This document shows positions 29 to 13,132 of a stretch of 64,000 nucleotides of DNA, one piece after another. The position numbers and the translations under genes were made by a program. The notes beneath the pieces are model-generated. The model worked only from the letters and a program-made list of their open reading frames with translations, was not told the origin of the DNA and ran no database searches. Each line of letters begins with the position of its first letter. The stretch's first letter is position 1. The DNA is from an uncultured Gammaproteobacteria bacterium (GTDB lineage: Bacteria; Patescibacteriota; Microgenomatia; UBA12405), in NCBI GenBank assembly GCA_964549165.1, contig CAZJUH010000001.1:863-64862 (forward strand), in the 5' to 3' direction.

Positions 29-790
29 TTACTCATTTACATAACCCTCAACCACCACACATTGTCCATTTTGGTTAATACATTTCTTGCCCACAGGTAC
101 TACATCTGGACAAGCAAAGCTTTCTTTTTCACTTGCTTCTATGCAAGCTTCTCCACACCAGCTACATTCTATTTCTCTTGGAGCTTGTGTATTTCTTGCC
201 TCTATCCCCACAACCCTATAAATTGCACTACTAATTTTATCCACTTTTAATTCTTGATCCGATCCGGCTTCATTATACCCAGCCACCATATTTCCATAAC
301 TGGTGTCGAGGCTAACCTTGGCCTGTCCATTAGTAATTGCCACAAAATTAAGTTTTACTATGCTGACCACTCCCTTTGGTAAACCTTTTGTTTCCTTCTC
401 TGTATTTGCTCCCACCAAATCATAAATTCCCGCTTCGTCATTAATATTTGACACTATTATTTCTTCCTCTCCCCTAAGCCAAGCATTTGTGACATTTGAC
501 GTGGAAGCTCTATTTCTTGTCACCACTTCTACGCTTTCTAGTTTCAATACTGACTGCTCGTATCTTACTCTTAAATCAGCTCCAGTTAAGAGTCGGTCTT
601 TGGTGTCAATCATTAAAGTAGTTGTTAGTTTTTCGCCCACTTTAAGTGTTTTTTCATTAGGTAGGAATAATGCCTCCACGTTAGCAAAAGAAGCTCCACT
701 TCTTGTCTCTTGATTGTTTTTAACCAAAAAACCAGCTCCAGCCAAAGTGGCTATTAAAATTAGAATTACTAGAATATTCTTTATTCTCAT
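29..790 (-). CDS. Secreted/membrane-anchored protein, beta-rich central region (possible cohesin-like module) and a Cys-rich C-terminus
   Basis: 253-aa ORF with an N-terminal hydrophobic signal/anchor (ILVILILIATLAGAGFLV) and a C-terminal cluster of 8 Cys. It lies directly downstream of the dockerin-bearing gene. The cohesin call is a guess from context only. Confidence 0.4.
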   Translation of the reverse strand: MRIKNILVILILIATLAGAGFLVKNNQETRSGASFANVEALFLPNEKTLKVGEKLTTTLMIDTKDRLLTGADLRVRYEQSVLKLESVEVVTRNRASTSNVTNAWLRGEEEIIVSNINDEAGIYDLVGANTEKETKGLPKGVVSIVKLNFVAITNGQAKVSLDTSYGNMVAGYNEAGSDQELKVDKISSAIYRVVGIEARNTQAPREIECSWCGEACIEASEKESFACPDVVPVGKKCINQNGQCVVVEGYVNE

Positions 791-795
791 ATTTT

Positions 796-3225
796 TTAAT
801 TACTGTCACTAACCGTTAATCTTTTTGTTTCCAAAAAAATCTCTCTCCAGATCTTATAGTCAGTTGTCTCCACCTTTTTATCACAGTTAAAATCAGCTTT
901 ACTTACCAGTCCCTTGGCATATTCATACCTCCAGATTGCATAATCAGCCAGATTAATCTTTCCGTCTCTGTTGGCATCACCTTTACCATTGACACATTCA
1001 CCACTTCTCGAGGTTGGTTTTAAGGTTACACTTTTTGTCGGCACTAATGTTACAGAAATTCTACATTTCTCGTTAAATGCCCTATAAATTGTTTGATCAC
1101 TTTTAGGGTTATCCTCACAAGTTTTATTTTCAAGTCTTTCCCACCAAGTATATTGCAAATTATTTACCTTACTACATCTAGAACATTGTAATGATTTTCT
1201 TGTCTCCATTGGTGCTCTACAGTTTGCATCATAAGTTCGAAGAACCTCTATTGAAGCCAAAGGATCAATAGAACAATCTACTGCTGTCCACACCGTTCTC
1301 ATAAAATCATAAAACTTACTACATCGATTACAATTATTTTCAACTGATGTTGGTTTACTTGTGGGTGTTAAAGTTATGGGTATCTTTTTCGGGGTTGGGG
1401 TTGGTTTATTAATACTCCATGAATAATTCGCATCAACCAGCTGCCAATTTGTGCCTTTATCTTTTGAGACAAGTAAAACTGGATCTTGAGGCACAACTTC
1501 TTTGTATTCACAATACCCTCTTTCTGCAAAACAGTTTGTTTTTATTACCAAGGGTTTTTCTGGCCATTTTTTATTGTAAGCAATAACATTTTCAGGAGTA
1601 AAACGAGTTATTAGTGTTGAATAGTTTAGATATATGTTACCCATATTATCGATAGTCATTTTTTGCTGCCAAGCACCATAATCAGTTCTCCAGGGAGTTA
1701 CCAGTTCTTTATGTTTTAAATTTATAATTCCACTGTTTGGATCTCCGGGATTTTTTAAATTACTAAAAGTTGACCATATTCCATCTTTTTTCATTTGCAT
1801 GTAAACAAGATATCTATATCCACTATATCCACCACCCCGATTACTGTTACGTGCCGCTAGATGCAAGGTATTATCAGCGTCAGAAACAAGACTGATGTAT
1901 GTATATCCAGAAACATCGCTAATTTTTTTAGCTTCCGTCCAAGAAGAATCAGCCGCATAGCTAGTCGGGACCGTATGTTTCGATTTAACATAATAAAAAT
2001 GTCCATTATGTGACCCTATAATAACGTGAAGATAACCATTTGAGTCAAGAGTAATAGCCGGATTTCCATGCGAATCAGGCCCAAGCTGATTAGTAAACTC
2101 ACCCCCAATGGCACAACCAATAAAAACTGGAGTACTTGTAGAATTAGTATTTCTATCATAGGCTACAACATAATTTGGCAAAGAATAATTTGCTCCAGCT
2201 ACTTGTTTACATATTTCTTTAGAATTTTCAGCCTCATAAACAATATATGAAAAAGAACCTTTGGTAACAACATTATTTGATCCACCCGAATGATTAATAC
2301 TTAACAAAGCGTCGATAGCAATAATTTTTGGTTCAGGAATGGTTAAGGTTTTGTCTGAATTGAGAATCGGTTTTGTTATGTATAAATTTTTATTAGTTCT
2401 ATAAGGAGATGGCGAAGAATCAAGTGACCCAGAATTTAAACGGTGAATTAGTATAGTCGGAGGACCAATGATGCGATTATGTCCACTATTAAATTCAAGC
2501 GTCGCCGCCATTCTATTACCATTAGACAGATTTACCACTCCGGGAATTTTGTACGCTTCCCAGTTTTGACCATAATCCTTGGAAAAAAGGAGTAGTCCCA
2601 CCGATTTACTTCCATCTTTAAAAGAAGGTGTGTCGATATAGGTATAAGCGTAGCAGTTGTTATCAAAAACAATTCTATCTTCGTAATTGACACTATCTTT
2701 CATCTTTCCATCCCAAGTACCTATTTCAGGATGTTTTTTTACGTATTCAAAGGCACTTGCGCGCATATCAACAATTTTCCAGGTTCCATTATCATCTAAA
2801 ATTTGAACTTTACCCGTACTATCTTGAATTCTTATATAAGGACGATTATTACAATCAAAACTTACTACCCCAGGTAAAAAATTTGGATTATACCCAAAGT
2901 CTCTTTCGTTTTTTATCTGTGAATTTTCAAATTTTTGAAAAATTGGTATAGTTAGACTTGACTTTGTCGCTGAACACTTTTTTTGTAAACCAAGGGATAA
3001 CAAATTATAATCCACCTTATCAACATTCCCATCATTATTAAAATCGGCAGTTTTTCCACCTGATCCCACACTTTCTTTATTCCAAATAAGTAAATCGAGT
3101 GGATTTATTGTATTATCACAATTTGCATCTCCGCATTTTTTTAATCCACAAGTATCTTCAGCAAAAATAAAATTAGTTTCAAACAAAAAAACAAAAGCCA
3201 AAAAGCACCAAATTATCTTCTTCAT
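796..3225 (-). CDS. Large secreted BNR/Asp-box repeat protein with N- and C-terminal dockerin-like Ca-binding repeat pairs
   Basis: 809-aa ORF with a signal peptide. Dockerin-type motifs DANCDNTINPLDLLIW / DFNNDGNVDKVDYNLL near the N-terminus and DANRDGKINLADYAIW / DFNCDKKVETTDYKIW at the C-terminus. Asp-box motifs (SKDYGQNW, SKDKGTNW) occur in between. Confidence 0.6.
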   Translation of the reverse strand: MKKIIWCFLAFVFLFETNFIFAEDTCGLKKCGDANCDNTINPLDLLIWNKESVGSGGKTADFNNDGNVDKVDYNLLSLGLQKKCSATKSSLTIPIFQKFENSQIKNERDFGYNPNFLPGVVSFDCNNRPYIRIQDSTGKVQILDDNGTWKIVDMRASAFEYVKKHPEIGTWDGKMKDSVNYEDRIVFDNNCYAYTYIDTPSFKDGSKSVGLLLFSKDYGQNWEAYKIPGVVNLSNGNRMAATLEFNSGHNRIIGPPTILIHRLNSGSLDSSPSPYRTNKNLYITKPILNSDKTLTIPEPKIIAIDALLSINHSGGSNNVVTKGSFSYIVYEAENSKEICKQVAGANYSLPNYVVAYDRNTNSTSTPVFIGCAIGGEFTNQLGPDSHGNPAITLDSNGYLHVIIGSHNGHFYYVKSKHTVPTSYAADSSWTEAKKISDVSGYTYISLVSDADNTLHLAARNSNRGGGYSGYRYLVYMQMKKDGIWSTFSNLKNPGDPNSGIINLKHKELVTPWRTDYGAWQQKMTIDNMGNIYLNYSTLITRFTPENVIAYNKKWPEKPLVIKTNCFAERGYCEYKEVVPQDPVLLVSKDKGTNWQLVDANYSWSINKPTPTPKKIPITLTPTSKPTSVENNCNRCSKFYDFMRTVWTAVDCSIDPLASIEVLRTYDANCRAPMETRKSLQCSRCSKVNNLQYTWWERLENKTCEDNPKSDQTIYRAFNEKCRISVTLVPTKSVTLKPTSRSGECVNGKGDANRDGKINLADYAIWRYEYAKGLVSKADFNCDKKVETTDYKIWREIFLETKRLTVSDSN

Positions 3226-3234
3226 AGCATGATA

Positions 3235-4224
3235 CTATACATTTTTATCAATCATTTCAACAATCAATTTAGCCACATTTATTCCCGTCGCTTTTTCAAA
3301 GCCCTGAAACTGGCACTGCCGGTTTACTTCTAAAATATAATTTTCGTAATCTTCTTTATTGTATTTTTTAGAATTTAGATTTTTGGATTTAGGATTTTTC
3401 ATAATATCAACTCCCCCATAATCAAGGCCACACACCCGAGCCACCTTTTCCGCCAAATTTCTCTCTTCTTCGTTTAAATTCCACGCCTCAACCTCTCCCC
3501 CCAGCGAAAAATTACTTCTAAACTCCTCCCCCACTGCTGATCTTTTCATCCCTCCAATTGCCCTTCCATCAACAATCAACGCCCTTATATCCCACCTTGT
3601 CGGTAAATATTTCTGCCAGAGAAACATTCCCAAATTCTTTTCGTTAATTTTATTCACGAATTTTTCCATCTCGTCTCTATTTTCAAACTTTCTCACCGAT
3701 TTTCCTTGATACCCTCTTTCATGTTTGGCAATTACCGGATACCCCCATTCAGAAAAATTGTCGCCACTTAATATTTGTTCCTTTGTATAAAAAATTCTTG
3801 TCGGTACTATCGGAATATCATTTTCCAAAAACACCCCATGCTGAGCTATTTTACCCATTCTCGTCCACCCCAAATAACCCTTTTTATTCACGCAAAATAT
3901 TTTTTCTCCCAAAATTCTTATTACCAAATTTCTCGCCTCGGTGTATTTCCCGCTTTTTGTCCCCGCCACCCTAAACCACAGCCCCAAAGTATTTTCCTCC
4001 ATCAACTCTTCCCCTCGAACATAGACTCTTGCAATATTTTTTTTCTCTCCCTTGTCAAAGGGAGAAGCGGCCAACGGCCGAGAGGGATTGAGATCAAACG
4101 ATAGCTCCCTATAAAGTACTCTGTTTACTTCAATCCCCAAAGCCCTTGCCTCGCTTTCTAATCTGTCCACCTCAAACTGGCTTTGCTTTGGTGACATCGT
4201 AAAAGTTACAATTTTTCTGGTCAT
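3235..4224 (-). CDS. RimK-family ATP-grasp ligase (alpha-L-glutamate ligase-like)
   Basis: 329 aa. ATP-grasp motifs include ...IRALIVDGRAIGGMKR...FRSNFSLGGEVEAW...GLDYGGVDIM. The gene carries in-frame insertions of two repeat elements (RPLAASPFDKGEKK, KNPKSKNLNSKK). Confidence 0.75.
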   Translation of the reverse strand: MTRKIVTFTMSPKQSQFEVDRLESEARALGIEVNRVLYRELSFDLNPSRPLAASPFDKGEKKNIARVYVRGEELMEENTLGLWFRVAGTKSGKYTEARNLVIRILGEKIFCVNKKGYLGWTRMGKIAQHGVFLENDIPIVPTRIFYTKEQILSGDNFSEWGYPVIAKHERGYQGKSVRKFENRDEMEKFVNKINEKNLGMFLWQKYLPTRWDIRALIVDGRAIGGMKRSAVGEEFRSNFSLGGEVEAWNLNEEERNLAEKVARVCGLDYGGVDIMKNPKSKNLNSKKYNKEDYENYILEVNRQCQFQGFEKATGINVAKLIVEMIDKNV

Positions 4225-4337
4225 AATTTTATTTATAAAAAATATTGAAAAATTCGCAATTATCTTTTTTTATTGACGTTGAACGTGGTAACACATTCAC
4301 AGGAAACAAAAAAATGGTAATAAGAATTTTTCATAAA

Positions 4338-5342
4338 CTATTTTTTAAGCGAAACTAAATATTTAACTATTTCCATTGGGACATCAATTCCGGTCGCTTT
4401 CATAAACCCTTTAAATTGAGGTCCTTTGTTTATTTCCCAAATTACCGGCTTTTTCATATCAAAACCTCTAAAGGCCACATCGACTCCGGCCACGGCCAGT
4501 CCGCAAACTTTCGCCGCTTTTACCGCTAGCTCTTTAATTTCCTCCGGCAAATCCGCCACTTCCACTGTCCCTCCGGCACTATAATTATTTCTAAATTCAT
4601 TTTTAGCGGTTCTGGCTCTTTTCATCACCCCCAGTACCTTTTCTCCCAGCACCAAAACTCTAAAATCACCGTCATTTTCAATATATTCCTGGAGCATATA
4701 TCTTTTTCCCTCTTCGGTTTCGCTTTTTCTCAAATCCCGAACCAATTTTTCGAGCTCTTCTATACTATTCGCTTTAAACACCCTCGTCCCCCTGTCTCCC
4801 CCGCTACCTTTTAATATTACAGGGAAACTAAATCGATAATTCGAGGCCAACAATTTTTCCTGACATTGAGCCTGCTTTGCAGACTCGCCGGAAGAAAAAA
4901 TTCGTTGGTGAGAATTATCTTCTCGTGCCATCACCTCATATAAATACCACAAAGATCCATAAACACTTCTCGGAACTTCAATCCCCTCTTCTTTTAATTT
5001 CAGCATTTGCCAAGCCTTACACGCGTAGCTCGGCTTCCCAAATCTTACGAGTGGGTCAACCACAATTGGCCCATGCCCTTCCGAAGCCTTAGGCGAAGGA
5101 GGGTTTATACTATTTATAATAAGATCTACCTCCTCCCAGTGCTTTCCCGTAGTTCTAAAAAATAAAACATCATAATCACTGGCATTTTTTCCTCTCAAAG
5201 AAATTTTTCCTGTTTCCGTTTCAAAACAAACCTGATTATATGACACCAAATCAAGTGACACCCCCATTTTTCTGGCCGCTTCTCTGACAAGGACCAGATG
5301 TTTACTAATTTTTCCTCCAAAAAATACTGCAATCTTAATCAT
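4338..5342 (-). CDS. RimK-family ATP-grasp ligase paralog
   Basis: 334 aa. Motifs FRVLVLGEKVLGVMKR...FRNNYSAGGTVEVADL...GLAVAGVDVAF match RimK / glutathione-synthetase-like ATP-grasp enzymes. Confidence 0.75.
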   Translation of the reverse strand: MIKIAVFFGGKISKHLVLVREAARKMGVSLDLVSYNQVCFETETGKISLRGKNASDYDVLFFRTTGKHWEEVDLIINSINPPSPKASEGHGPIVVDPLVRFGKPSYACKAWQMLKLKEEGIEVPRSVYGSLWYLYEVMAREDNSHQRIFSSGESAKQAQCQEKLLASNYRFSFPVILKGSGGDRGTRVFKANSIEELEKLVRDLRKSETEEGKRYMLQEYIENDGDFRVLVLGEKVLGVMKRARTAKNEFRNNYSAGGTVEVADLPEEIKELAVKAAKVCGLAVAGVDVAFRGFDMKKPVIWEINKGPQFKGFMKATGIDVPMEIVKYLVSLKK

Positions 5343-5343
5343 C

Positions 5344-6846
5344 TTATTTTCTATTCTTTTTTAATAAATAATTTCTCCCCTCCTTGTCAAGGGAGGTGGC
5401 AGGGGTGAGTTTTACTGCGCTCACTAAAAATCCTTCTAAATCTTTCCTTCCGAGTAAAAATTTTGTTCTCAGTTTTTCTCTATCGGCCACATTGACGGCT
5501 GTTACCACTTTTTTTCCTTGCAGCCAAAAACTTACCCCAATTACCGGTCGATTTTTATGTTTACCGAGGCTTGATTTATAATGCCTAAAATATAATATTT
5601 TTTCCGAGGAAAGTAGTCCCAATTTTTCGGCCAGGCTTCTATCAATTGAGCTTCTAAAAGCTCCCGTGTCTACCTTTGCCCGTACTTCAACTACCCGGTG
5701 CTTTCCCTGTTTTATGATTGGGCTTTTTTGTAAATCCGGCTTAAAACCTTTAGGGATTTTCATTCTAATAATTTCGAGGGGCTGAATAGTTTTATCTTTT
5801 TCTTTTTCCGATACCTTATCCGAAAACTTTTCTCCAAATAAATATTTAGCGAGAGCTATTCCATGTTCATCACTTCTTACTGTTATATCGTCAATTTTTT
5901 CGATTCTACTTTTTAGACCTGCTTTATTACAAAGTTGAATAGAAAGTCCCGACCGGGCATTTACTTCGAGTATTTTAGGACCGTCTTCTTTGTCAATCAC
6001 CACATCCACTCCGACAAAGCCGAGACCCGGAATCGCCCCCTGGCATTTTACTGCCGTCTCGAGCACCTCTTTCCAAAAAGGAATTTTTATCCCATTCACT
6101 TTTATCATCTTTTTTTTACCAAAATCATGTATTTTTCTAATTTCGACCCCCTTTCCCTCAATTCCAAAAGTGGTAATTCCACTGGCGAGGTCAATTCCGA
6201 GGCCATAGGCCCCCTGTTGTAAATTAGCTTTTCCCCCGCTCTTTTCGGTGGGAATTCGCAGCATCGCCATCACCGGCACCCGATTGTAAATAATTACCCT
6301 AATATCGGGGGTTCCTGATTTTGTCAAAGTCAAAAACAACGGGTGAATCTTAATTCTCTCTTCCACAATTACCCCATCCGCCGTTCCATGCAAACTATAT
6401 TTTCCCCCAAGTATTTCGAGACAATGTAGTTTAATTTCTTCGAGACTTATTACCTTTCCATTCATCATTAAAAAATTTATATTTTCGCTTTTAGAATTTA
6501 GATTTTTTTTTCTAATTATAAGTATTCCCTCCCCTCCATATCCTGACACCGGCTTAATCACAAAATTTCCTTCAAGTTTGCTCCACTCAAAATTCTCTCC
6601 TTCTTCTCTGTTTTTAAACCTCACAATTAGTTTCGGGACCCCTATTCCCGCTTTTGCTAGTCTTCTCTTTGTTTTATATTTATTATCGGCAATCGCCCTA
6701 CCCTCCGCTGTATTTTTTCTCAAATACACCTTATTTCTCTCATTTTTGGTCAAAAACTGATGATATTGCTTAAAATTTATTCCAAACATATGAAAATCAA
6801 TGACCAATAACCAAATTACAAGAAACAAACAAATTACAATTAACAA
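5344..6846 (-). CDS. ATP-grasp ligase (alpha-L-glutamate ligase-like) fused to a C-terminal retropepsin-like putative Zn-protease (RimB-like) domain; N-terminal TM helix
   Basis: 500 aa. N-terminal TM helix. ATP-grasp core (GYGGEGILII ... ILEVNARSGLSIQ). The C-terminal ~130 aa (HRVVEVRAKVDTGAFRSSID...VSFWLQGKK) resemble the RimK-associated 'ATP-dependent zinc protease' domain family. Two repeat-element insertions are present. Confidence 0.6.
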   Translation of the reverse strand: MLIVICLFLVIWLLVIDFHMFGINFKQYHQFLTKNERNKVYLRKNTAEGRAIADNKYKTKRRLAKAGIGVPKLIVRFKNREEGENFEWSKLEGNFVIKPVSGYGGEGILIIRKKNLNSKSENINFLMMNGKVISLEEIKLHCLEILGGKYSLHGTADGVIVEERIKIHPLFLTLTKSGTPDIRVIIYNRVPVMAMLRIPTEKSGGKANLQQGAYGLGIDLASGITTFGIEGKGVEIRKIHDFGKKKMIKVNGIKIPFWKEVLETAVKCQGAIPGLGFVGVDVVIDKEDGPKILEVNARSGLSIQLCNKAGLKSRIEKIDDITVRSDEHGIALAKYLFGEKFSDKVSEKEKDKTIQPLEIIRMKIPKGFKPDLQKSPIIKQGKHRVVEVRAKVDTGAFRSSIDRSLAEKLGLLSSEKILYFRHYKSSLGKHKNRPVIGVSFWLQGKKVVTAVNVADREKLRTKFLLGRKDLEGFLVSAVKLTPATSLDKEGRNYLLKKNRK

Positions 6847-6933
6847 TAATCAAAAGTACAAACCATTTAGTTATTGTGATTTGAGACATTGGTAATTGTT
6901 TGGAATACTTGGTTATTGTCTCTTGGTTATTAG

Positions 6934-7692
6934 TCATTTTTTTCTAATCGCCCCTTTAAATCTTTTTATCTCTGTCAGCCTTATTCCTCCATATCTTCCG
7001 ACCAGCACATTAATTATTACTACAATTAAAATAACTATTTCTGCCCTTTTTAGCACCATTTCTTCAATTCCCTCTACCCCCATTATCATCGCCCCCACTG
7101 CCGCCAGCACTAGTGTTCCCGTCGTCAGGCTTACCGCCTCTTTTTTACTTTTAATCAGCTGGGTTCTGGCAAATTCTTCGGTTAAAAGTATCATAAACAG
7201 GATTGGGAAAATAGAAATTTTACTCACATCAACCATTTTAATATAAGAAGCTAGAATCATCGCCCCAAAAGTCCCCATACTGACAAAGAGCAGCGTAATT
7301 GATCTGGCCGGCCAAAAATGTAATTTTAATTTTTTAACCAAAAGATTACTCAGTAATGTAATTGCCAGTATTACGACAAACAGTATCAGCCCACTTCCTA
7401 CCCCCGTGGCCAGCAGAGCCACTGCCATCATGGTTGGCATAAAAATTCCATAACCGGAAAACCCGATCACATAGTGAATTACTGAAACGAGAGTTGCCAC
7501 CAGCGGTAGAAGCAGTAGTAAGGCCACCGTATTTTCCGGCACCCCTCTACTCACTGCTTCTGAGATTAAATAGCTGATTCCATTCCAAAACTTAAAAACA
7601 ACCCTTCCGCCTGTCTCCACTCCTTCCTGGGCATTCACTGCTCCCACATTTATAAAAAGCCACGCCAAAAATAAAAGGGCAGTTTTTCTCAT
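6934..7692 (-). CDS. Signal-peptide-bearing 7-TM membrane protein, first gene of the ATP-grasp cluster (7TM module of 7TM/ATP-grasp/protease systems)
   Basis: 252 aa. Signal peptide (FLAWLFINVGAVNAQE), a ~40-aa extracytoplasmic segment, then about 7 hydrophobic helices. Co-directional with and immediately upstream of the three ATP-grasp genes. Confidence 0.5.
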   Translation of the reverse strand: MRKTALLFLAWLFINVGAVNAQEGVETGGRVVFKFWNGISYLISEAVSRGVPENTVALLLLLPLVATLVSVIHYVIGFSGYGIFMPTMMAVALLATGVGSGLILFVVILAITLLSNLLVKKLKLHFWPARSITLLFVSMGTFGAMILASYIKMVDVSKISIFPILFMILLTEEFARTQLIKSKKEAVSLTTGTLVLAAVGAMIMGVEGIEEMVLKRAEIVILIVVIINVLVGRYGGIRLTEIKRFKGAIRKK

Positions 7693-7838: not shown

Positions 7839-8162
7839 ATGAATAAATTTTTACTGGCTGAAGTCAATATAAGTAGCACCCCCTTAGGTACTGGTAAAAA
7901 TCTCGGGAATGTCTACAAAGATCCCGCCACTTTAGTTACTTTGATAGTCAGAAATAGCCTAACTGTCGCCGGAATTATTCTATTGGTTCTCATAATCGCC
8001 GGTGGTTTTATGATGATTTCTAGTGCTGGTTCCGGAGATCAAAAAAAAGCCGCCTCGGCTAGCGCCATGATTACCGATGCCGCCATTGGCTTCTTGGTAA
8101 TTTTTCTTAGTTACTTTATAATTCAAATCATAGAAGTTATTACCGGATTAACTATTTTATAA
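7839..8162 (+). CDS. TrbC/VirB2-like T4SS pilin-family small membrane protein (paralog 1 of 6)
   Basis: 107 aa. Two hydrophobic helices flank a short charged loop (AGGFMMISSAGSGDQKKAAS ... AIGFLVIFL). The same architecture and motif recur in the next five genes. Confidence 0.5.
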   Translation: MNKFLLAEVNISSTPLGTGKNLGNVYKDPATLVTLIVRNSLTVAGIILLVLIIAGGFMMISSAGSGDQKKAASASAMITDAAIGFLVIFLSYFIIQIIEVITGLTIL

Positions 8163-8165
8163 ATA

Positions 8166-8498
8166 ATGATTGGCATTTTTGGCACTATCACCAACCCCAC
8201 CAATTACGGCACTGCCGGTGACAAGGGCCAGGGACTTTTCACCTTTTTAAGCAACATTTTTAAATTTGCCGCTGTCGCTGGTGGTCTTTACATGATTGTT
8301 CAAATTATTCTAGCTGGCTTTGAATACATCAGTGCCTCAGGTGATACCAAAAAAACCGAAGCCGCTTGGGCCAAAATTTGGCAAAGTATTCTCGGTCTTG
8401 TCATTATTTCTTCTGCTTTTATTATTGCTGGTATCGTTGGTCGCTTCACTGGTATTGATATTCTCAATCCTGTTATAAAAGGCCCCGGTCAACCATAA
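8166..8498 (+). CDS. TrbC/VirB2-like pilin-family paralog 2
   Basis: 110 aa. Motif ILAGFEYISASGDTKKTEAAWAKIWQSILGLVII. Tightly packed with its neighbours (gaps of 1-4 nt). Confidence 0.5.
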   Translation: MIGIFGTITNPTNYGTAGDKGQGLFTFLSNIFKFAAVAGGLYMIVQIILAGFEYISASGDTKKTEAAWAKIWQSILGLVIISSAFIIAGIVGRFTGIDILNPVIKGPGQP

Positions 8499-8499
8499 T

Positions 8500-8841
8500 A
8501 TGAAATTAATTGCCTACACGCTCACAGGTCCCGGTAAAAATCCCACCGGTGGGGTCGAAGCCACCACCATGCTGGAAAAGCTCGCCAGCAATCTAATTGG
8601 CATTCTTACTATTGTTGCTGTCCTCTTTTTTGTCATTCAAATTATTTTTGCTGGTTATAGTTTCATCTCTTCCGGTGGCGACGAAAAAATGATGGAGACT
8701 AGCCGTAAAAAACTTACCAATGGTATTCTTGGTTTAGTTATCGTTATTCTCGCTGTTGGGATTGGCTCACTTATCGCCAAGCTTCTGGGACTTGAAAATA
8801 TTTTTAGTCTCAACGAAATGTTTATTAAAATGGGTTTATAA
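8500..8841 (+). CDS. TrbC/VirB2-like pilin-family paralog 3
   Basis: 113 aa. Motif IFAGYSFISSGGDEKMMETSRKKLTNGILGLVIVIL. Confidence 0.5.
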   Translation: MKLIAYTLTGPGKNPTGGVEATTMLEKLASNLIGILTIVAVLFFVIQIIFAGYSFISSGGDEKMMETSRKKLTNGILGLVIVILAVGIGSLIAKLLGLENIFSLNEMFIKMGL

Positions 8842-8853
8842 AATTAAAAAACT

Positions 8854-9177
8854 ATGCCAATATGCAATCCACTCTTAAAAAATTGTAACAACGTTACTGA
8901 CCCCTTAGGTTACACTAATAACGTTCTCCAGTCGGCATTTTCCATCTTGTTTGTTATTGGTATTATCAATTTTATTTGGAATTTTATGATGGGTGCTTAT
9001 AGTTTAATCAGTCAAGGGGGAGAGAAAGAAAAGGTAGAAACTGCCAAACATAAATTCACTAATGCTTTTCTTGGCCTCGTACTCATGTTTGTCATCTTTG
9101 CCATTCTCAAGCTGGTTGGATATATTACCGGTATCAAGGGTCTTGATACTCTCCAGCTAAGCTGGCCTACCCTTTAA
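8854..9177 (+). CDS. TrbC/VirB2-like pilin-family paralog 4
   Basis: 107 aa. Motif MMGAYSLISQGGEKEKVETAKHKFTNAFLGLVLMFVIF. Confidence 0.5.
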   Translation: MPICNPLLKNCNNVTDPLGYTNNVLQSAFSILFVIGIINFIWNFMMGAYSLISQGGEKEKVETAKHKFTNAFLGLVLMFVIFAILKLVGYITGIKGLDTLQLSWPTL

Positions 9178-9230
9178 AATAATCCATTTCCCTGTTAAAC
9201 TTTATTAATTTATTAAAAATTTAAAAAAAT

Positions 9231-9602
9231 ATGTCTTCAATCAAAAACAAGCTTCAATTTGCCCTCTTAGCCATTCCCGCCTTTGCCGCAGAGACAATTG
9301 ATCTCGCTCCAAAAGATAATTTTGCCGGTTTAGCTGATTTAAGTTTTAGTGGTATTATTTCCGGAGCCGTCTCCCTAATTCTTTTAGTGGTCGCTCTAGT
9401 TTTCTTTTTTATCCTTATCACAGGCGGTTTAAAATGGGTTATGTCCGGTGGTGACCAAAAAAATGTCGAGGCGGCTCGCAATCAAATCACCAACGCTCTT
9501 ATTGGCCTGGCCATTGTCTTTGCTACTTTCGCCATTATGAAATTAATTGAAACCCTTTTTGGCATCACCATCCTCAGTAATCTTACTATCAAGCCTTTTT
9601 AA
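9231..9602 (+). CDS. TrbC/VirB2-like pilin-family paralog 5 (with cleavable signal peptide)
   Basis: 123 aa. Signal peptide LLAIPAFAAE, then LKWVMSGGDQKNVEAARNQITNALIGLAIVFATF. A rho-independent terminator follows. Confidence 0.5.
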   Translation: MSSIKNKLQFALLAIPAFAAETIDLAPKDNFAGLADLSFSGIISGAVSLILLVVALVFFFILITGGLKWVMSGGDQKNVEAARNQITNALIGLAIVFATFAIMKLIETLFGITILSNLTIKPF

Positions 9603-9625
9603 GAAAATTCGAATTAAATCCCAAA

Positions 9626-9653
9626 CCCCCCGAAATAACATCGGGGGGTTTTT
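9626..9653 (+). terminator. Rho-independent terminator after the fifth pilin paralog
   Basis: Stem CCCCCCGA, loop aataaca, stem TCGGGGGG, followed by TTTTT. Confidence 0.7.
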
Positions 9654-9669
9654 AAGTTATAATTAACTC

Positions 9670-10092
9670 ATGAAATCTATTTTCACTTTTTTTCTTTGTC
9701 TCGCCATAGCTTCTTGCATCGGCGTATCCATTCTGTCTTCTCCTGTTTTTGCCCAAACAACCAAGCCCTGGACTGGTCGCTGTGTCCAGACTTTCAACGT
9801 TAACGGAAAAATTATTGATGATGTTGCCACTATTCAGGGCTTTGAATGTCTTTTTTACAATGTTCTCCAGGTTATTGTCACCATCGCTGGTCTAGCTTTT
9901 CTCTTTATGTTTATCAGCGGTGGCTATAAATATCTCTTTAGCGGTAGTGAACCAAAGGCGGTCGCCGCCGCCTCTTCTGCCATCACCAGTGCTTTTATCG
10001 GTCTCATTGGTGTAATCGCTTCTTGGCTTATTATAAAATTAATTCAGGATTTCACCGGCATCAACGTTACCATATTTAAAATTCCCGGCTAA
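9670..10092 (+). CDS. TrbC/VirB2-like pilin-family paralog 6 (signal peptide, extra Cys-containing N-domain)
   Basis: 140 aa. Signal peptide, then FISGGYKYLFSGSEPKAVAAASSAITSAFIGLIGVIASWLII. Confidence 0.45.
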   Translation: MKSIFTFFLCLAIASCIGVSILSSPVFAQTTKPWTGRCVQTFNVNGKIIDDVATIQGFECLFYNVLQVIVTIAGLAFLFMFISGGYKYLFSGSEPKAVAAASSAITSAFIGLIGVIASWLIIKLIQDFTGINVTIFKIPG

Positions 10093-10095
10093 ATA

Positions 10096-11541
10096 GTGAA
10101 AAAAAATAGCTTATTATTATTCTTTTGTTTTTTCTTTTTATCTGTCACCCCTTCTCGTGCCTTCGATCTTCTCAATTTTCTTTTTCCCTCAGTTCAAATG
10201 GAGAACAGTACCCGCTCCGCTCCCGATCCTGCATTAGCGCCAGAAGTTCCGAGCAACAACACCTATTCCAATACCCTAAAAAACGACATCATTATCTGTA
10301 GTGGTAATGGCGCCGCTGGTAATAGTTGGTCAAAAGAGGACCACAAAACTACGGTAACTAAGGTAGATTCGAATGGCAATCCTTATACAGAAAATCTGTA
10401 TCTAGATTACAATGCCGAGAACCTAGGTGGAGAAATTGATTTAAAAAACCTATCTAACGAATATTATCGTAATTTTCAATCTTTTTTTGCTCGTGGCAGC
10501 ATTAAGTGTACCGAAGAAAAGGCAAAAAATAGTTTTCTTTCTCTTGAAATGAATGGCACCAGTGCTTCTCTACGTTCTTTGCCCACCAGCCAAATTAATT
10601 ATTATCGCAGTCTATTTTTAACTGAAGCCGCCCTGTCTCTAAATAACAGTGATCAATTAGATACCGTTACACAGGATTACCAAATCGCCTGGGACTGTCA
10701 GGGCACCTGTATCGAAATGTCTCAAGATAAATCAAAATTAGCTTCTTCCTGCCGTCCTGTCTATCTTAGTGAAATTATTTTCGGTCTCCAAAACGAAGCC
10801 CTTTATTACCGAAATCCCACCTCAGAACCAGAATCTTTTCCCTCGGCGCTCCTCACTCCAATTTTAAGCCATTATAGCGGTAGCTGTGGCACTTATGGTT
10901 GTTATTCAACCAGGTCTAAAGGCAAAAGTTTTGTTCCCCTTGCTAAAGAGGACTATCTTCTTTTTTACAAACAACTAAATTATATTCCCAAAGGAAACGT
11001 CAATAGTCGTGTTACCGTTACCAACTATAAAGGTTTTGATATTAACGGAGATCGTCCTATTGATCCCGTCGAGACAACCGATGATCGTACTTTACCAAAC
11101 GCCGCCGCTGCCTATTCTCCTCACTCCACCACCCTAAGTTTTGTTAATCCAAGCCTTCAAAAACCACTTGAAAATACCGATATGTGTCAAAACAGTGAGG
11201 TCAGCCATTTGACCTCTCGAGATAAGCCTGAATTTAATAATATTCCCACTTTCGTTGAGGGAATAATCGCATTTGTCGAAGCAGCTTTTGATTTTAGTAA
11301 AAGTGTCCCCATTCCCGTCAGTACCACCTACGATAAAAAAATTGTTGATAATGTGAAAGTAAGTGAACAAGCTTTTTTCAACATGATTCCTTCCGAATCT
11401 CTGGAAAAGAAAAAATTATTAGAAGAAAGTTTTTCCAGTAAAACTCCTTCTAACGACGATGCCAATGTTGTTGATCCTGGATACCGTTCTGATCTCCTTT
11501 ATCAAGAAATGCGTTCCCTGCTTCGCCCCTCATCTTGGTAA
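10096..11541 (+). CDS. Secreted Cys-containing protein of unknown function (T4SS-associated candidate: minor pilin or adhesin)
   Basis: 481 aa. Signal peptide (LLLFFCFFFLSVTPSRAFD) and no further TM helix. Sits between the pilin array and the polytopic membrane protein. Confidence 0.45.
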   Translation: MKKNSLLLFFCFFFLSVTPSRAFDLLNFLFPSVQMENSTRSAPDPALAPEVPSNNTYSNTLKNDIIICSGNGAAGNSWSKEDHKTTVTKVDSNGNPYTENLYLDYNAENLGGEIDLKNLSNEYYRNFQSFFARGSIKCTEEKAKNSFLSLEMNGTSASLRSLPTSQINYYRSLFLTEAALSLNNSDQLDTVTQDYQIAWDCQGTCIEMSQDKSKLASSCRPVYLSEIIFGLQNEALYYRNPTSEPESFPSALLTPILSHYSGSCGTYGCYSTRSKGKSFVPLAKEDYLLFYKQLNYIPKGNVNSRVTVTNYKGFDINGDRPIDPVETTDDRTLPNAAAAYSPHSTTLSFVNPSLQKPLENTDMCQNSEVSHLTSRDKPEFNNIPTFVEGIIAFVEAAFDFSKSVPIPVSTTYDKKIVDNVKVSEQAFFNMIPSESLEKKKLLEESFSSKTPSNDDANVVDPGYRSDLLYQEMRSLLRPSSW

Positions 11542-11560
11542 TATTTTGCTACAATAAATT

Positions 11561-13132
11561 ATGGCCAATAATTTTCTAAAGAAAATTTTATTTTTAACCC
11601 TCTTCTTTTCTTTGATAATCCTCCCCTCCAAGGCCTTTGCTCAAGAAGCCCCCACCACCTCAACTAATCTTTTTTCTCAAAAACAAAAGGCCATTAAAAA
11701 TAATACCGGTCTCGAATCCTGGACCAACGAAGCCATGAGCAGCAACATGGTTTCCCTCTTTGTTGGTATAAATGGCACCGTCCCCGAGGAAGTACTCAAT
11801 GACGAAGCCAACTTCGACACTACCTATGTTCCTGGAGGAGCTATAGGTCAACTCAATAATGCTATTGTTGCTCTTCATCAGCCACCGGCCTCAGGAATTG
11901 AATATCTTGCCCAAATGAAAGATGCTTTTCTTGGCAAACCTGCTTATGCCCAGAATGGCACTCTTCAAAAACTGCAGTTCATTTTACCCCTTTGGCGCAT
12001 CTTTAGAAATGTAGTTTACGTTCTTTCTACTATTATGTTTATTGTCATTGGGATGATGATTATGCTCCGAGTAAAAGTTAGTCCCCAAGCTGTCATTACC
12101 GTTCAAAGCGCTATTCCTCGAATTATTACCGTTTTGATTTTGGTTACTTTTTCTTATGCCATTGCCGGACTAGTCTTAGATCTTTGTAACTTTCTCCAGG
12201 CTATTACTATTTCTTTACTTTTTTCCGTCCAAAATAAAGGACTTTCCGAGCAATTGTTTGAAAATACAAATTGGTATTCTACCTTTCTTACCAATCTTGG
12301 AGAATGGATAAAAAATATTTTTAGAACAGATCCAGATTTCGGTTATTTATCGCTTGTCAACATGAACTCAAGAACTTTCAGAAACTTGTCTGCAAGAATC
12401 TCGCCAAATGTCGTTACGGGTAATTATTTAGGGGTATTCATTGGAAGAGTTACTGGTGTTGGTGCCCTACTGGGTGGTGTTGGTGGTGTCTTATTACCCT
12501 TATTAATTTCCATTATGAAATTCTTCTGGTTATTTAAATTGTTTTTTGGTTTACTAAAGTGCTACGCCACTTTGCTTTTAAAGATAATCCTTGCCCCTCT
12601 CGAAATTGCCATGGGAGCTTTTCCAAACTCTAAAATGAATTTTTCTTCTTGGATTACTGATTTTGCCGCCAATGCTCTTGTTTTCCCTGTGGTTGCCATA
12701 TTTTTAGTTATAGTCAACGTCATTATCGACGTTTTTATCGCTGGGACAAGGGGTACCAGCCAAGCATTTTGGATGCCCGGCTTAATCGACGCCACCAGTC
12801 TATTTAAAACTAATCAAGATCAAGCCTATGTTGCCATTGCCACTGGCCTCGGTCTCATCGCCCTCTCTCTTTTAAGTAAACTACCGGAAATGATCCCTGT
12901 TATGATTAAGGAAATGAAAGGTCCCGATTTTGGTAAAGCCATCGGCGAAAGTCTTAAGGGAATAGGTAACAATCCTGTCACTGGATTCGCCAAATCCATT
13001 GGCGGTGAAGCCCTTGAAAAAAGGTTTATTAATTCAGAATTTGGAAAAAGCCTAACTAAAGCGACAACTAGACCGGCTTCTGTAAAAAAAGGTACTGCAA
13101 CTGAACCCACCCAACCAACAACCAAACAGTAA
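11561..13132 (+). CDS. Polytopic membrane protein, VirB6/TrbL-like candidate
   Basis: 523 aa. Signal peptide, a ~100-aa exported segment, then at least 6 hydrophobic helices and a hydrophilic C-terminal tail. Position after the pilins is typical for VirB6. No specific motif was recognised. Confidence 0.4.
   Translation: MANNFLKKILFLTLFFSLIILPSKAFAQEAPTTSTNLFSQKQKAIKNNTGLESWTNEAMSSNMVSLFVGINGTVPEEVLNDEANFDTTYVPGGAIGQLNNAIVALHQPPASGIEYLAQMKDAFLGKPAYAQNGTLQKLQFILPLWRIFRNVVYVLSTIMFIVIGMMIMLRVKVSPQAVITVQSAIPRIITVLILVTFSYAIAGLVLDLCNFLQAITISLLFSVQNKGLSEQLFENTNWYSTFLTNLGEWIKNIFRTDPDFGYLSLVNMNSRTFRNLSARISPNVVTGNYLGVFIGRVTGVGALLGGVGGVLLPLLISIMKFFWLFKLFFGLLKCYATLLLKIILAPLEIAMGAFPNSKMNFSSWITDFAANALVFPVVAIFLVIVNVIIDVFIAGTRGTSQAFWMPGLIDATSLFKTNQDQAYVAIATGLGLIALSLLSKLPEMIPVMIKEMKGPDFGKAIGESLKGIGNNPVTGFAKSIGGEALEKRFINSEFGKSLTKATTRPASVKKGTATEPTQPTTKQ

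What the first reader, a model, noticed from the sequence alone, without database searches (positions are those of the whole stretch)
3235..7692. 7TM protein + three tandem RimK-type ATP-grasp ligases, one fused to a retropepsin-like protease domain
A co-directional four-gene cluster. It starts with a signal-peptide 7-TM protein and an ATP-grasp ligase carrying a C-terminal RimB-like ('ATP-dependent Zn protease' / retropepsin fold) domain, and ends with two further RimK-like ligases. Established comparative genomics links 7TM modules, alpha-L-glutamate-ligase-like ATP-grasp enzymes and this protease domain in peptide-tagging/processing systems of unknown substrate. The protease domain is usually N-terminal or stand-alone. 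Here it is C-terminal to the ligase, the 7TM protein lacks the usual transglutaminase-like domain, and the ligase is triplicated. This variant arrangement may modify C-termini of proteins or a secreted peptide, possibly signalling through the 7TM protein.
Basis: partly seen in the sequence, partly recalled or inferred. Interest (0 to 1): 0.6.

Follow-up and report, generated by a model that had tools for sequence, protein, structure and literature searches.

The report
Streamlined Rlo-like ligase–protease membrane module
This four-gene cluster from an ultra-small (Patescibacteria/CPR) bacterium is a compact, previously undescribed version of the Pseudomonas "Rlo" envelope-stress system, in which a peptide-building enzyme is fused to the protease that trims its product and is always paired with a seven-helix membrane protein.

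Summary
Four co-directional minus-strand genes encode:
- a signal-peptide 7TM protein (PF14402, with no transglutaminase domain);
- a 481-aa fusion (start corrected to the ATG at 6789) of an RloC-type ATP-grasp ligase (PF14397/TIGR02291) and a C-terminal retropepsin-like domain;
- two old, divergent RimK-family paralogs.

A profile of the protease domain hits the RloA crystal structures 9G59 and 9G58 at E≈1e-9. DTG, the GR(K)D motif and the basic residues are invariant.

The arrangement is not a one-off. The fusion occurs across Patescibacteria (Shapiro-, Woese-, Levy-, Moran-, Paceibacteria). A 7TM gene lies directly upstream in 78 of 79 loci, and 0–3 RimK-like ligases lie downstream. Relatives add a MATCAP/DUF1704 carboxypeptidase and then usually lose the DTG motif. 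The T4SS-pilin adjacency is lineage synteny only.

Best reading: a membrane-tethered machine that builds and trims acidic (poly-Glu-like) peptide chains, homologous to RloB/RloC/RloA and analogous to RimK/RimB. Ribosomal protein S6 is an unlikely substrate, because Shapirobacteria S6 lacks an acidic tail. The product and the 7TM role remain inferred.

I rate it a new variant of a known kind, of moderate interest. The fusions give Rosetta-stone clues to the unknown chemistry of RloC.

The parts
6934..7692 (-). RloB-like 7TM membrane protein (252 aa). It has a signal peptide (aa 1-21), a ~30-aa ectodomain, seven TM helices (aa ~53-232) and a conserved basic cytoplasmic C-terminal helix (YGGIRLTEIKRFKxAIRKK). 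It has no transglutaminase domain.
   Evidence: Pfam PF14402 E=3.2e-24, aa 56-246. The NCBIfam RloB model matches only at positions 312-506 of 508, with 65 bits against a cutoff of 900. Hydropathy and the AF2 helices give the topology. Conservation is shown in alignment A4. A homologous gene lies directly upstream of the fusion in 78 of 79 loci.
5344..6789 (-). Fusion gene (481 aa, start corrected from the TTG at 6846 to the ATG at 6789): an RloC-type ATP-grasp ligase joined to a retropepsin-like aspartic protease. It has no signal peptide or TM segment, so it is cytoplasmic.
   Evidence: Alignment A1 shows that all homologues start at M20 of the TTG ORF. More than 2297 homologues were found, and the top 120 are 70-94% identical with the same two domains. 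No hydrophobic segment was detected.
5830..6789 (-). Ligase domain of the fusion (aa 1-320): ATPgrasp_ST / 'alpha-L-glutamate ligase-like' (RloC-type).
   Evidence: PF14397 scores 200.8 bits. TIGR02291 scores 240 bits, which is the best family by more than 180 bits but is below the equivalog cutoff of 314. Unfused relatives about 40% identical pass that cutoff. The AF2 ATP-grasp part resembles CphA1, Ddl, ArgX/LysX and RimK at E~1e-8 to 1e-9.
5410..5739 (-). Retropepsin-like (RimB/RloA family, PF05618) protease domain (aa 351-460). It contains K372-x-D374-T-G-A (the D374 codon is at 5668-5670), R414, R437 and G447-R448-K449-D450. It is strongly basic: 24 K+R against 10 D+E.
   Evidence: The profile search against the PDB gives 9g59 at E=2.8e-9 and 9g58 at 1.9e-8 (both RloA), 2pma at 2.6e-5, and then Ddi1 and retroviral proteases. 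These residues are invariant in 26 homologues.
4338..5342 (-). RimK-family ATP-grasp ligase, paralog 1 (334 aa). Its start lies 1 nt after the fusion's stop codon, which suggests translational coupling.
   Evidence: PF08443 E=3e-29. TIGR00768 scores 139.1 bits against a cutoff of 143.4. The best PDB hits are E. coli and Pseudomonas RimK at E~7e-17. The ATP-grasp motifs QEY, DFR, EFRNN, GVD and EIN are present. It is always first after the fusion in the Shapirobacteria clade.
3235..4224 (-). RimK-family ATP-grasp ligase, paralog 2 (329 aa). It has a divergent N-terminal ~120 aa and a 14-residue Lys/Asn-rich insert before the E-x-N motif.
   Evidence: PF08443 E=1.4e-26. TIGR00768 scores 128.7 bits against 143.4. 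The best PDB hit is RimK 5zct at E=2e-13, and the alignment shows the insert. It is 37% identical to paralog 1 over 170 aa only. It holds a fixed second position in the Shapirobacteria clade.

Best explanation
The cluster is the Patescibacteria (CPR) version of the Rlo system (RloB/RloC/RloA), reduced and partly fused.

Shown:
- A 7TM RloB-like membrane protein without the periplasmic transglutaminase-like domain is invariably encoded next to a cytoplasmic protein.
- That protein joins an RloC-type ATP-grasp amide ligase to a catalytically intact, strongly basic retropepsin-like protease of the RimB/RloA family.
- Two old RimK-family ligase paralogs follow it.

Inferred mechanism:
1. The ATP-grasp domains use ATP to add L-glutamate (or another acidic residue) stepwise to a carboxyl terminus. 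This builds an acidic alpha-peptide chain, either free or on a protein tail. The RimK paralogs prime the chain or extend it with their own specificities.
2. Two fusion chains pair their retropepsin domains into an active aspartic endopeptidase. This cuts inside the acidic run. It thereby limits chain length, releases product and creates new ends, as RimB does when it both trims and stimulates RimK.
3. The 7TM partner holds this machine at the cytoplasmic face through its three conserved basic cytoplasmic segments. It either passes the product to the cell surface or couples the activity to the state of the envelope.

The product and the 7TM function are unknown even in Pseudomonas. I put assignment to the Rlo family at about 0.9 and this mechanism at about 0.4-0.5.
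For: Family assignment:
- Pfam and NCBIfam hits for all four proteins.
- The protease-domain profile hits the RloA crystal structures at E~1e-9.
- Unfused relatives of the ligase are true TIGR02291 members.

Catalytic competence:
- AKVDTGA, R414, R437 and GRKD are invariant.
- The two Arg residues are 23 apart, like RloA R114 and R137. Mutating those two abolishes poly-E cleavage (PMC12239564).
- The domain has a net charge of +14.
- ATP-grasp motifs are present in all three ligases.

Functional linkage:
- 7TM plus fusion are adjacent in 78 of 79 loci across several CPR classes.
- The fusion gene and RimK1 are 1 nt apart.
- There are independent domain fusions in relatives: ligase + retropepsin + MATCAP carboxypeptidase, ligase + retropepsin + a second ATP-grasp, and fused double RimK-likes.
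- DTG is kept in 29 of 42 two-domain representatives but only 9 of 46 long (mostly MATCAP) forms. This suggests that a hydrolase partner is needed and is interchangeable.

Published biochemistry and genetics of the homologues:
- RloA and RimB cleave runs of at least 8 Glu.
- rloB and rloC deletions suppress the rloA1-3 triple mutant.
- RimB stimulates RimK ATPase activity about fourfold, and poly-alpha-Glu was detected only when RimB was present.
- A RimB-RimK hybrid is active.

Against: - No substrate or product is identified. No acidic-tailed ORF, poly-D/E tract or S6 gene lies in the 64-kb window.
- The amino-acid specificity of RloC-type ligases has never been determined.
- The window protein alone scores just below Pfam's cutoff for PF05618 (25.7 against 27). 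The AF2 model of that domain is of low confidence, with pLDDT below 50.
- In Pseudomonas the protease is periplasmic, while here it is cytoplasmic. The logic of the two systems may therefore differ.
- The 7TM fold matched nothing in the PDB (best E=0.5), so export or tethering is pure inference.
- 17 of 61 loci have no RimK-like gene, so the RimK paralogs are accessory.
Confidence: 0.5

Rival explanations
1. Classic RimK/RimB function. [quoted passage not shown]
For: Both 330-aa proteins hit authentic RimK structures best. RimB-type proteases act on glutamylated RpsF.
Against: - S6 proteins of Shapirobacteria and Microgenomates are minimal (96-97 aa). They end at the last beta-strand (...RHLLIVIE/D) with no disordered acidic tail.
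- Both paralogs score far below the S6-Glu ligase equivalog model (68 and 57 bits against 331) and just below the RimK subfamily cutoff.
- The strict pairing with a 7TM membrane protein, and with an RloC-type rather than a RimK-type ligase, does not fit a ribosome-directed system.
- The S6 of this exact genome was not seen.
Confidence: 0.07
2. Stepwise, non-ribosomal assembly of a small peptide or peptide-like metabolite, such as an osmolyte, a signal or a RiPP-type product. Several ATP-grasp ligases would build it, the protease would process it, and the 7TM protein would export it.
For: - The number of ligases in series varies from 1 to 4, as in stepwise assembly lines.
- The ATP-grasp fold resembles L-amino-acid ligases, Ddl and LysX/ArgX as closely as it resembles RimK.
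- The Rlo phenotypes are osmotic.
Against: - No conserved small precursor ORF lies in or beside the cluster. The intergenic gaps are not conserved: 144 nt here, 1 nt in L001.
- The graspetide maturase model scores 30 bits against a cutoff of 350.
- The protease family is known only to cut long Glu runs of at least 8 residues, not short peptides.
- 17 of 61 loci have a single ligase only.
Confidence: 0.15
3. Envelope-polymer modification. The ligases add amino acids to a lipid-linked or surface glycopolymer or peptidoglycan precursor (the Pfam name is 'sugar-transfer associated ATP-grasp'), and the 7TM protein acts as flippase or acceptor scaffold.
For: - The Pfam family name reflects its gene-neighbourhood context.
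- rlo mutants have defects in cell shape, beta-lactam sensitivity and hypo-osmotic survival.
- A Shewanella RloB-type mutant over-produces membrane vesicles.
- A PBP1 gene is nearby in 17 Moranbacteria-type loci.
Against: - No glycosyltransferase or polysaccharide gene is conserved next to the module. The recurrent neighbours are housekeeping genes and differ by lineage.
- The obligatory partner is a peptide-cleaving retropepsin or a MATCAP carboxypeptidase. That points to a peptide chain rather than a sugar.
Confidence: 0.15
4. The cluster belongs functionally to the divergently transcribed T4SS-pilin gene array and modifies or processes pilins.
For: Six T4SS_pilin genes (PF18895) lie directly upstream and divergent, both in the window and in all close relatives.
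Against: The adjacency is limited to 17 loci of the Shapirobacteria clade. It is absent from Woese-, Levy-, Moran- and Paceibacteria loci that keep the 7TM-fusion pair. The pilin C-termini are not acidic.
Confidence: 0.04

Closest known systems
rloABC operon of Pseudomonas aeruginosa / Vibrio cholerae (Lormand et al. 2025, mBio, PMC12239564)
   Same: It has the same three protein families in one operon:
- a 7TM_transglut-family membrane protein (RloB);
- a TIGR02291/PF14397 ATP-grasp protein (RloC);
- a PF05618 retropepsin-like protease (RloA) with the K-x-D-T-G motif and two key Arg residues conserved.
   Different: - The 7TM protein lacks the ~310-aa inactive transglutaminase domain. Here it has a ~30-aa ectodomain; relatives have PT-rich linkers or a PKD domain.
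- The protease is not a secreted stand-alone enzyme. It is fused to the C-terminus of the cytoplasmic ligase.
- There are two extra RimK-family ligases.
- The host is Patescibacteria, whereas RloB was reported as 96% proteobacterial.
- The ligase scores below the TIGR02291 equivalog cutoff.
RimK-RimB (RimABK) system and the RimBK hybrid of Desulfotalea (Little et al. 2016; 2025, PMC11957791)
   Same: A cytoplasmic poly-Glu-type ATP-grasp ligase works with a retropepsin-like endopeptidase that both trims and stimulates it. A covalent ligase-protease hybrid exists and is active. The window also holds two RimK-family genes.
   Different: - In RimBK the protease is N-terminal to a RimK-type ligase. 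Here it is C-terminal to an RloC-type ligase, so this is an independent fusion.
- Rim systems have no 7TM partner.
- The Rim substrate S6 has an acidic tail that Shapirobacteria S6 lacks.
Tubulin tail code enzymes: TTL/TTLL ATP-grasp ligases with MATCAP/CCP carboxypeptidases (analogy only; MATCAP = PF08014)
   Same: A writer-eraser pair acts on acidic C-terminal tails. Relatives of the window fusion carry a MATCAP/DUF1704 domain in the same polypeptide.
   Different: There is no tubulin-like substrate. The window protein itself has no MATCAP domain. The homology is limited to fold families.
Cyanophycin synthetase CphA1 (analogy; the primer-generating hydrolytic site is recalled from my own knowledge, not checked here)
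   Same: An ATP-grasp polymerase makes a poly-amino-acid and has a built-in hydrolase that creates new chain ends. It was the top Foldseek hit for the ligase domain.
   Different: The hydrolase fold, the polymer and the domain order all differ, and there is no 7TM partner.

Membership tests
Rlo system (RloA/RloB/RloC) | RloC: cytoplasmic ATP-grasp protein of the 'alpha-L-glutamate ligase-like' family (TIGR02291 / PF14397) | tested here: inconclusive
   PF14397 scores 200.8 bits against a gathering score of 31.4, so the Pfam test is met. TIGR02291 scores 240 bits against an equivalog cutoff of 314, so that test is not met, although it is the best family by more than 180 bits. Unfused relatives about 40% identical do pass, at 333-420 bits. 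I read the window domain as a divergent subfamily.
Rlo system (RloA/RloB/RloC) | RloB: seven TM helices of the 7TM_transglut family | tested here: met
   PF14402 E=3.2e-24, 86 bits against 25. Seven helices are seen in the hydropathy scan and the AF2 model.
Rlo system (RloA/RloB/RloC) | RloB: N-terminal periplasmic inactive transglutaminase domain | tested here: not met
   The NCBIfam RloB model aligns only at positions 312-506 of 508, scoring 65 bits against 900. The ectodomain is about 30 aa. All 120 listed homologues of the 7TM protein are 206-307 aa and carry PF14402 only.
Rlo system (RloA/RloB/RloC) | RloA: retropepsin-like aspartic protease with catalytic D-T-G and a basic cleft | tested here: met
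   The profile search gives E=2.8e-9 and 1.9e-8 to the RloA structures 9G59 and 9G58. K372, D374-T-G, R414, R437 and R448 are invariant. The net charge is +14.
Rlo system (RloA/RloB/RloC) | RloA: stand-alone, secreted (N-terminal signal peptide) | tested here: not met
   The domain is fused C-terminally to the ligase, and the 481-aa protein has no signal peptide or TM segment.
Rlo system (RloA/RloB/RloC) | The genes are co-located in one operon | tested here: met
   The genes are co-directional, with gaps of 144, 1 and 113 nt. The 7TM gene is directly upstream in 78 of 79 loci.
Rlo system (RloA/RloB/RloC) | Role in hypo-osmotic tolerance, cell shape and antibiotic tolerance; rloB/rloC loss suppresses loss of the proteases | not testable with these tools
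   This needs genetics. The host is uncultured.
RimK (ribosomal protein S6 : L-glutamate ligase) | RimK-type ATP-grasp domain with its catalytic motifs | tested here: met
   PF08443 E=3e-29 and 1e-26. The best PDB hits are RimK 5zct, 4iwx and 7qyr, and the motifs align.
RimK (ribosomal protein S6 : L-glutamate ligase) | Scores above the curated RimK subfamily or equivalog cutoffs | tested here: not met
   TIGR00768 scores 139.1 and 128.7 bits against 143.4. NF007764 scores 68.5 and 57.4 bits against 331.
RimK (ribosomal protein S6 : L-glutamate ligase) | A substrate S6 with an acidic (Glu-Glu) C-terminal tail | tested here: not met
   S6 proteins named Shapirobacteria or Microgenomates are 96-97 aa and end ...RHLLIV[IL][ED] with no tail. 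This was tested on relatives. The S6 of this genome is not in the window.
RimBK hybrid | RimB domain at the N-terminus of a RimK-type ligase | tested here: not met
   Here the protease is C-terminal and the ligase is ATPgrasp_ST/RloC-type (PMC11957791).
PF05618 'Zn_protease' / RimB-like retropepsins | Score above the Pfam gathering threshold | tested here: inconclusive
   The window sequence scores 25.7 bits against 27. Most of the 120 homologues listed carry precomputed PF05618. P0121, 56% identical, scores 42.4 bits.
PF05618 'Zn_protease' / RimB-like retropepsins | Homodimer forming a two-Asp active site | not testable with these tools
   Only a monomer AF2 model was possible. The domain has pLDDT below 50.
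Graspetide / ATP-grasp RiPP clusters | An adjacent precursor peptide gene and a graspetide-type maturase | tested here: not met
   There is no conserved small ORF. TIGR04187 scores 29.9 and 13.1 bits against 350.
Anti-phage defence systems (PADLOC) | Any component matching a known defence-system model | tested here: not met
   None of the four proteins had a hit.

The most novel reading that the evidence does not exclude
The fused enzyme is a writer-eraser for a reversible poly-glutamate tail placed on the cytoplasmic C-terminus of its own 7TM partner (or of itself). This would be a bacterial counterpart of the tubulin tail code, controlling a membrane protein.

The accessory RimK-like ligases would prime non-acidic tails. 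In lineages without them, a genome-encoded -EEEE tail would replace priming.

The hint is this. Seven of 17 loci without RimK-like genes have a 7TM or fusion protein ending in an acidic tail (for example -IIEEEE, -KDDEEE, -EMLEE), against 1 of 44 loci with RimK-like genes (Fisher p=3e-4). These fall in only about 4 independent clades. MATCAP carboxypeptidase fusions in relatives fit C-terminal tail editing.
Probability: 0.12. Interest if true: 0.85.

Novelty: new variant of a known kind. Interest (0 to 1): 0.55.

Why it matters
The chemistry of the Rlo system is an open question: what RloC makes, and what RloB does. The system is clinically relevant because it affects osmotic survival, biofilm formation and beta-lactam tolerance in Pseudomonas.

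The Patescibacteria version gives natural Rosetta-stone evidence. The RloC-type ligase is covalently joined to a poly-Glu-type endopeptidase and, in relatives, to a MATCAP-type carboxypeptidase that edits tails. This argues that RloC-type enzymes build acidic peptide chains that must be trimmed.

It also shows three further things:
- The system is not essentially proteobacterial.
- The transglutaminase-like domain is dispensable.
- The 7TM-ligase pair is the conserved core.

The genomes of these ultra-small bacteria are heavily reduced, yet many of them keep a module with up to four ATP-consuming ligases. That suggests an important role, probably related to the envelope or to the symbiotic lifestyle. 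A single soluble 481-aa polypeptide carrying both ligase and protease would also be a convenient object for biochemistry.

Tried and rejected
1. A single-sequence PDB search with the C-terminal domain gave only E=0.003, and the full fusion gave nothing. A family profile was needed.
2. The AF2 model of the fusion is good for the ATP-grasp part, but the protease domain has pLDDT below 50. No fold-level confirmation of the retropepsin domain was possible. Foldseek of the model only shows a generic amino-acid/peptide ligase fold.
4. Searches for a substrate found no small ORF with an acidic tail in or near the cluster, no poly-D/E tract and no S6 gene in the 64-kb window.
5. Promoter and terminator scans were not above shuffled expectation in any useful way. 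Rfam gave no hit and there are no tRNAs.
6. PADLOC gave no hits, so a defence-system reading is rejected.
7. A functional link to the T4SS-pilin array is rejected, because the adjacency is confined to the Shapirobacteria clade.
8. The other recurrent neighbours (RuvC, YebC, PBP1, MgsA, L10/L12, ABC ATPase) are housekeeping synteny, not partners.
9. Iyer et al. 2009 (PMC3268129), the original comparative-genomics paper, is not held. Its predictions could not be quoted.
10. An exact look-up of the window's fusion protein in the assemblies index found nothing, so the source sample is unknown.
11. My iterated 'ligase' HMM drifted to include RimK-likes. The paralogs were therefore classified by direct BLAST scores instead.

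Full report
**What is there**

The window region 3235-7692 holds four co-directional genes on the minus strand:
- 7692..6934, 252 aa;
- 6846..5344, 500 aa as the longest ORF;
- 5342..4338, 334 aa;
- 4224..3235, 329 aa.

G+C content (0.36-0.41) does not differ from the surroundings.

Pfam and NCBIfam give these assignments:
- The 252-aa protein matches 7TM_transglut (PF14402, E=3e-24). It also matches the C-terminal half only (positions 312-506 of 508) of NCBI's RloB model.
- The 500-aa protein matches ATPgrasp_ST (PF14397, E=3e-59) and TIGR02291 'alpha-L-glutamate ligase-like protein'. The TIGR02291 score is 240 bits, below the equivalog cutoff of 314 but more than 180 bits ahead of any other family. 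It also has weak C-terminal matches to Zn_protease PF05618 (25.7 bits against 27), Asp_protease_2, RloA2/RloA3 and RimB.
- Both 330-aa proteins match RimK (PF08443). They fall just under the RimK subfamily cutoff, at 139 and 129 bits against 143.

**Corrections to the gene models**

An alignment with 15 homologues shows that the fusion protein starts at M20 of the TTG ORF, the ATG at 6789. This gives 481 aa. The hydrophobic 19-residue extension is not conserved, and in relatives the upstream gene leaves no room for it. The protein has no TM segment, so it is cytoplasmic.

The 7TM protein has these features:
- a signal peptide (aa 1-21);
- an ectodomain of only about 30 aa, where close relatives carry a Pro/Thr-rich linker;
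- seven TM helices;
- three conserved basic cytoplasmic segments, including the C-terminal helix YGGIRLTEIKRFKxAIRKK.

The gaps between the genes are 144, 1 and 113 nt. The next gene, for a secreted dockerin/BNR protein, follows after 9 nt.

**Is the C-terminal domain really a retropepsin?**

With the single sequence the evidence is marginal (E=0.003 to 9g59). A profile built from 20 diverse copies of the domain gives a clear answer:
- 9g59_A at E=2.8e-9 and 9g58_A at E=1.9e-8;
- 2pma at E=2.6e-5;
- then Ddi1, foamy-virus and EIAV proteases and ApRick.

9G58 and 9G59 are the RloA crystal structures of Lormand et al..

The motifs A-K372-V-D374-T-G-A, R414, R437 and G447-R448-K449-D450 are invariant in 26 homologues that are 70-89% identical overall. 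The domain is more conserved than the ligase. The two arginines are 23 residues apart, as are RloA R114 and R137. Alanine substitutions at those two positions had the strongest effect on poly-Glu cleavage. This mapping rests on spacing and on the HMM alignment, not on a structure. The domain carries 24 K+R against 10 D+E, which fits an acidic substrate.

The AF2 model of the fusion was confident only for the ATP-grasp part. That part resembles cyanophycin synthetase, Ddl, ArgX/LysX and RimK about equally.

**The two RimK-like genes**

Both hit E. coli and Pseudomonas RimK structures best, and both keep the ATP-grasp motifs. They are only 37% identical to each other, and only over the C-terminal 170 residues. 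Within the Shapirobacteria clade their order is fixed, type 1 then type 2. Within-type scores are about 290-580 bits against roughly 100 bits across types. They are therefore old paralogs, not a recent triplication, and the third ligase belongs to another family.

**Distribution and context**

The fusion protein has more than 2297 homologues in the large protein collection. The top 120 (70-94% identical) all have a length consistent with the two-domain protein, most carry both PF14397 and PF05618, and where named they are called Candidatus Shapirobacteria or Woesebacteria.

An exhaustive search of 50%-identity cluster representatives finds 355 clusters at E≤1e-30. One hundred of the best 150 carry the C-terminal domain.

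In species-representative genomes at least 592 stretches encode a relative. The best 80 loci come from Shapiro-, Woese-, Levy-, Moran-, Paceibacteria and Kaiserbacteria, plus MAGs with evidently wrong labels.

In these loci:
- A 7TM_transglut-family gene lies directly upstream on the same strand in 78 of 79 cases that have room for it.
- The number of downstream RimK-like ligase domains is 0 (17 loci), 1 (12), 2 (25) or 3 (7). Some are fused into double ligases.
- The divergent array of six T4SS-pilin genes seen in the window occurs only in 17 loci of the Shapirobacteria clade.

All other recurrent neighbours are housekeeping genes that differ by lineage. The conserved core is therefore the pair [7TM][ligase-retropepsin], and the RimK-like ligases are accessories.

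**Informative relatives**

About a third of the best representatives are proteins of roughly 780-820 aa in which the ligase-retropepsin unit is followed by a MATCAP/DUF1704 (PF08014, TIGR02421) domain. That family includes the tubulin detyrosinating carboxypeptidase. Other relatives add a second ATP-grasp domain or a YdjC domain.

One such locus, L066, has a PKD-7TM gene, the 800-aa triple fusion and three RimK-like genes.

The catalytic D-[TS]-G is kept in 29 of 42 two-domain representatives but in only 9 of 46 long forms. My inference is that a peptide hydrolase is an obligatory partner of this ligase. Where a carboxypeptidase is present, the retropepsin-like domain often survives only as a non-catalytic module.

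**Comparison with what is known**

The closest known system is the rloABC operon (PMC12239564). Its features are:
- RloA, a secreted retropepsin that cleaves runs of at least 8 Glu.
- RloB, an inactive transglutaminase plus 7TM protein.
- RloC, a cytoplasmic ATP-grasp protein.
- Loss of rloB or rloC suppresses the hypo-osmotic lethality of the triple protease mutant.
- The product of RloC is unknown, and RloB was reported to be 96% proteobacterial.

The second relative is RimK/RimB (PMC11957791). RimB trims polyglutamylated S6 and raises RimK ATPase activity about fourfold, and poly-alpha-Glu was detected only when RimB was present. An active hybrid, RimBK, carries the protease at the N-terminus of RimK.

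The window system differs from both:
- It has no transglutaminase domain.
- The protease is fused C-terminally to an RloC-type ligase, so it is cytoplasmic and the fusion event was independent.
- It has extra RimK-family ligases.
- It is in a different phylum.

No paper in the searchable library describes it.

**Substrate**

The classic RimK substrate is unlikely. S6 proteins named Shapirobacteria or Microgenomates are 96-97 aa and end at the last beta-strand without an acidic tail. The window has no S6 gene, no ORF with an acidic C-terminus and no poly-D/E tract.

One hint came from other lineages. Some 7TM proteins end in -IIEEEE, -KDDEEE, -SQEEEE or -REEDEEE, and some fusion proteins end in -DDIEE or -EMLEE. 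These acidic tails occur in 7 of 17 loci without RimK-like genes against 1 of 44 with them (Fisher p=3e-4), but in only about four independent clades. The window's own tails are basic.

**Most likely mechanism**

Shown:
- the domain identities;
- intact catalytic motifs;
- a cytoplasmic location for ligase and protease;
- strict genetic coupling to the 7TM protein;
- recurrent fusion to peptide hydrolases.

Inferred:
1. The ATP-grasp domains build an acidic (most likely alpha-linked Glu) chain on a carboxyl terminus.
2. The retropepsin domains of two chains dimerise and cut within the chain. This controls length, releases product and makes new ends, as RimB does for RimK.
3. The RimK paralogs prime or extend the chain.
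4. The 7TM partner anchors the machine and either exports the product or couples it to the state of the envelope.

I put the family assignment at about 0.9 and this mechanism at about 0.4-0.5.

The rivals are S6 modification, small-peptide or RiPP assembly, glycopolymer modification and pilin processing. They are listed with their evidence in the Rival explanations section. PADLOC and Rfam searches were negative.

**Verdict**

The finding is a new, clade-wide variant of a known kind of system, of moderate interest. Its value lies mainly in offering a compact, fused and widespread form that makes the unknown chemistry of the Rlo system directly testable.

Noticed in passing
window 7839-13132 (+), and L001-L018, L020: There is an array of six small paralogous T4SS_pilin (PF18895) genes, followed by two large unannotated proteins (481 and 523 aa, the latter multi-TM). 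It is divergent from the cluster and conserved in gene order throughout the Shapirobacteria clade only.
   Followed up: partly
window 796-3225 (-) and 29-790 (-): A secreted 809-aa protein starts 9 nt after the second RimK gene. It has Dockerin_1 repeats at both ends and BNR repeats. It is followed by a 253-aa protein with a weak cohesin match, so this may be a cohesin-dockerin surface pair in a CPR bacterium. Partial homologues follow the cluster in about 6 related loci.
   Followed up: partly
L019, L038, L065, L072, L074 (7TM genes); L043, L075, L077 (fusion genes): In some lineages the 7TM protein or the fusion protein ends in an acidic tail (-IIEEEE, -KDDEEE, -SQEEEE, -REEDEEE, -DDIEE, -EMLEE). 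These are almost only loci that lack accessory RimK-like genes (7 of 17 against 1 of 44, Fisher p=3e-4), and they fall in about 4 independent clades.
   Followed up: partly
representatives P0126-P0262; L066:3474-5876: Long relatives fuse the ligase-retropepsin unit to a MATCAP/DUF1704 (TIGR02421 'QEGLA') carboxypeptidase. In these the retropepsin D-T/S-G motif is mostly lost (kept in 9 of 46), whereas it is kept in 29 of 42 two-domain forms.
   Followed up: yes
L051, L062, L064, L067 (ORFs of 592-646 aa downstream of the fusion); L026:11268-11699 and L081:7131-7667: Some Moranbacteria-type loci carry two RimK-like ligases fused into one polypeptide. Two loci have an extra stand-alone retropepsin-like ORF right after the fusion gene.
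   Followed up: no
L066:1870-3420, L070:8410-10002: The ectodomain of the 7TM partner is variable: about 30 aa in the window, PT-rich linkers in close relatives, and a PKD domain in L066 (516 aa). None of those examined has the transglutaminase-like domain. The 530-aa L070 copy was not scanned.
   Followed up: partly
loci L006, L011, L013-L015, L017-L019, L034 and others; proteins P0026, P0313: Many public MAG records that carry this typically patescibacterial locus are labelled 'uncultured Gammaproteobacteria', 'Pseudomonadales', 'Bdellovibrionales', 'Woesearchaeota' or 'Candidatus Methanoperedens'. These taxonomy labels are probably wrong.
   Followed up: no
window 15738-17381 (+), 19555-22479 (-): The window contains a full-length DUF6909 protein (E=8e-153) and a 974-aa DUF4012 protein. 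Both are large conserved proteins of unknown function, lying next to an FtsH gene.
   Followed up: no
proteins P0402-P0412: S6 ribosomal proteins of Shapirobacteria and Microgenomates are minimal (96-97 aa) and lack the disordered acidic C-terminal tail found in E. coli and Pseudomonas S6.
   Followed up: yes
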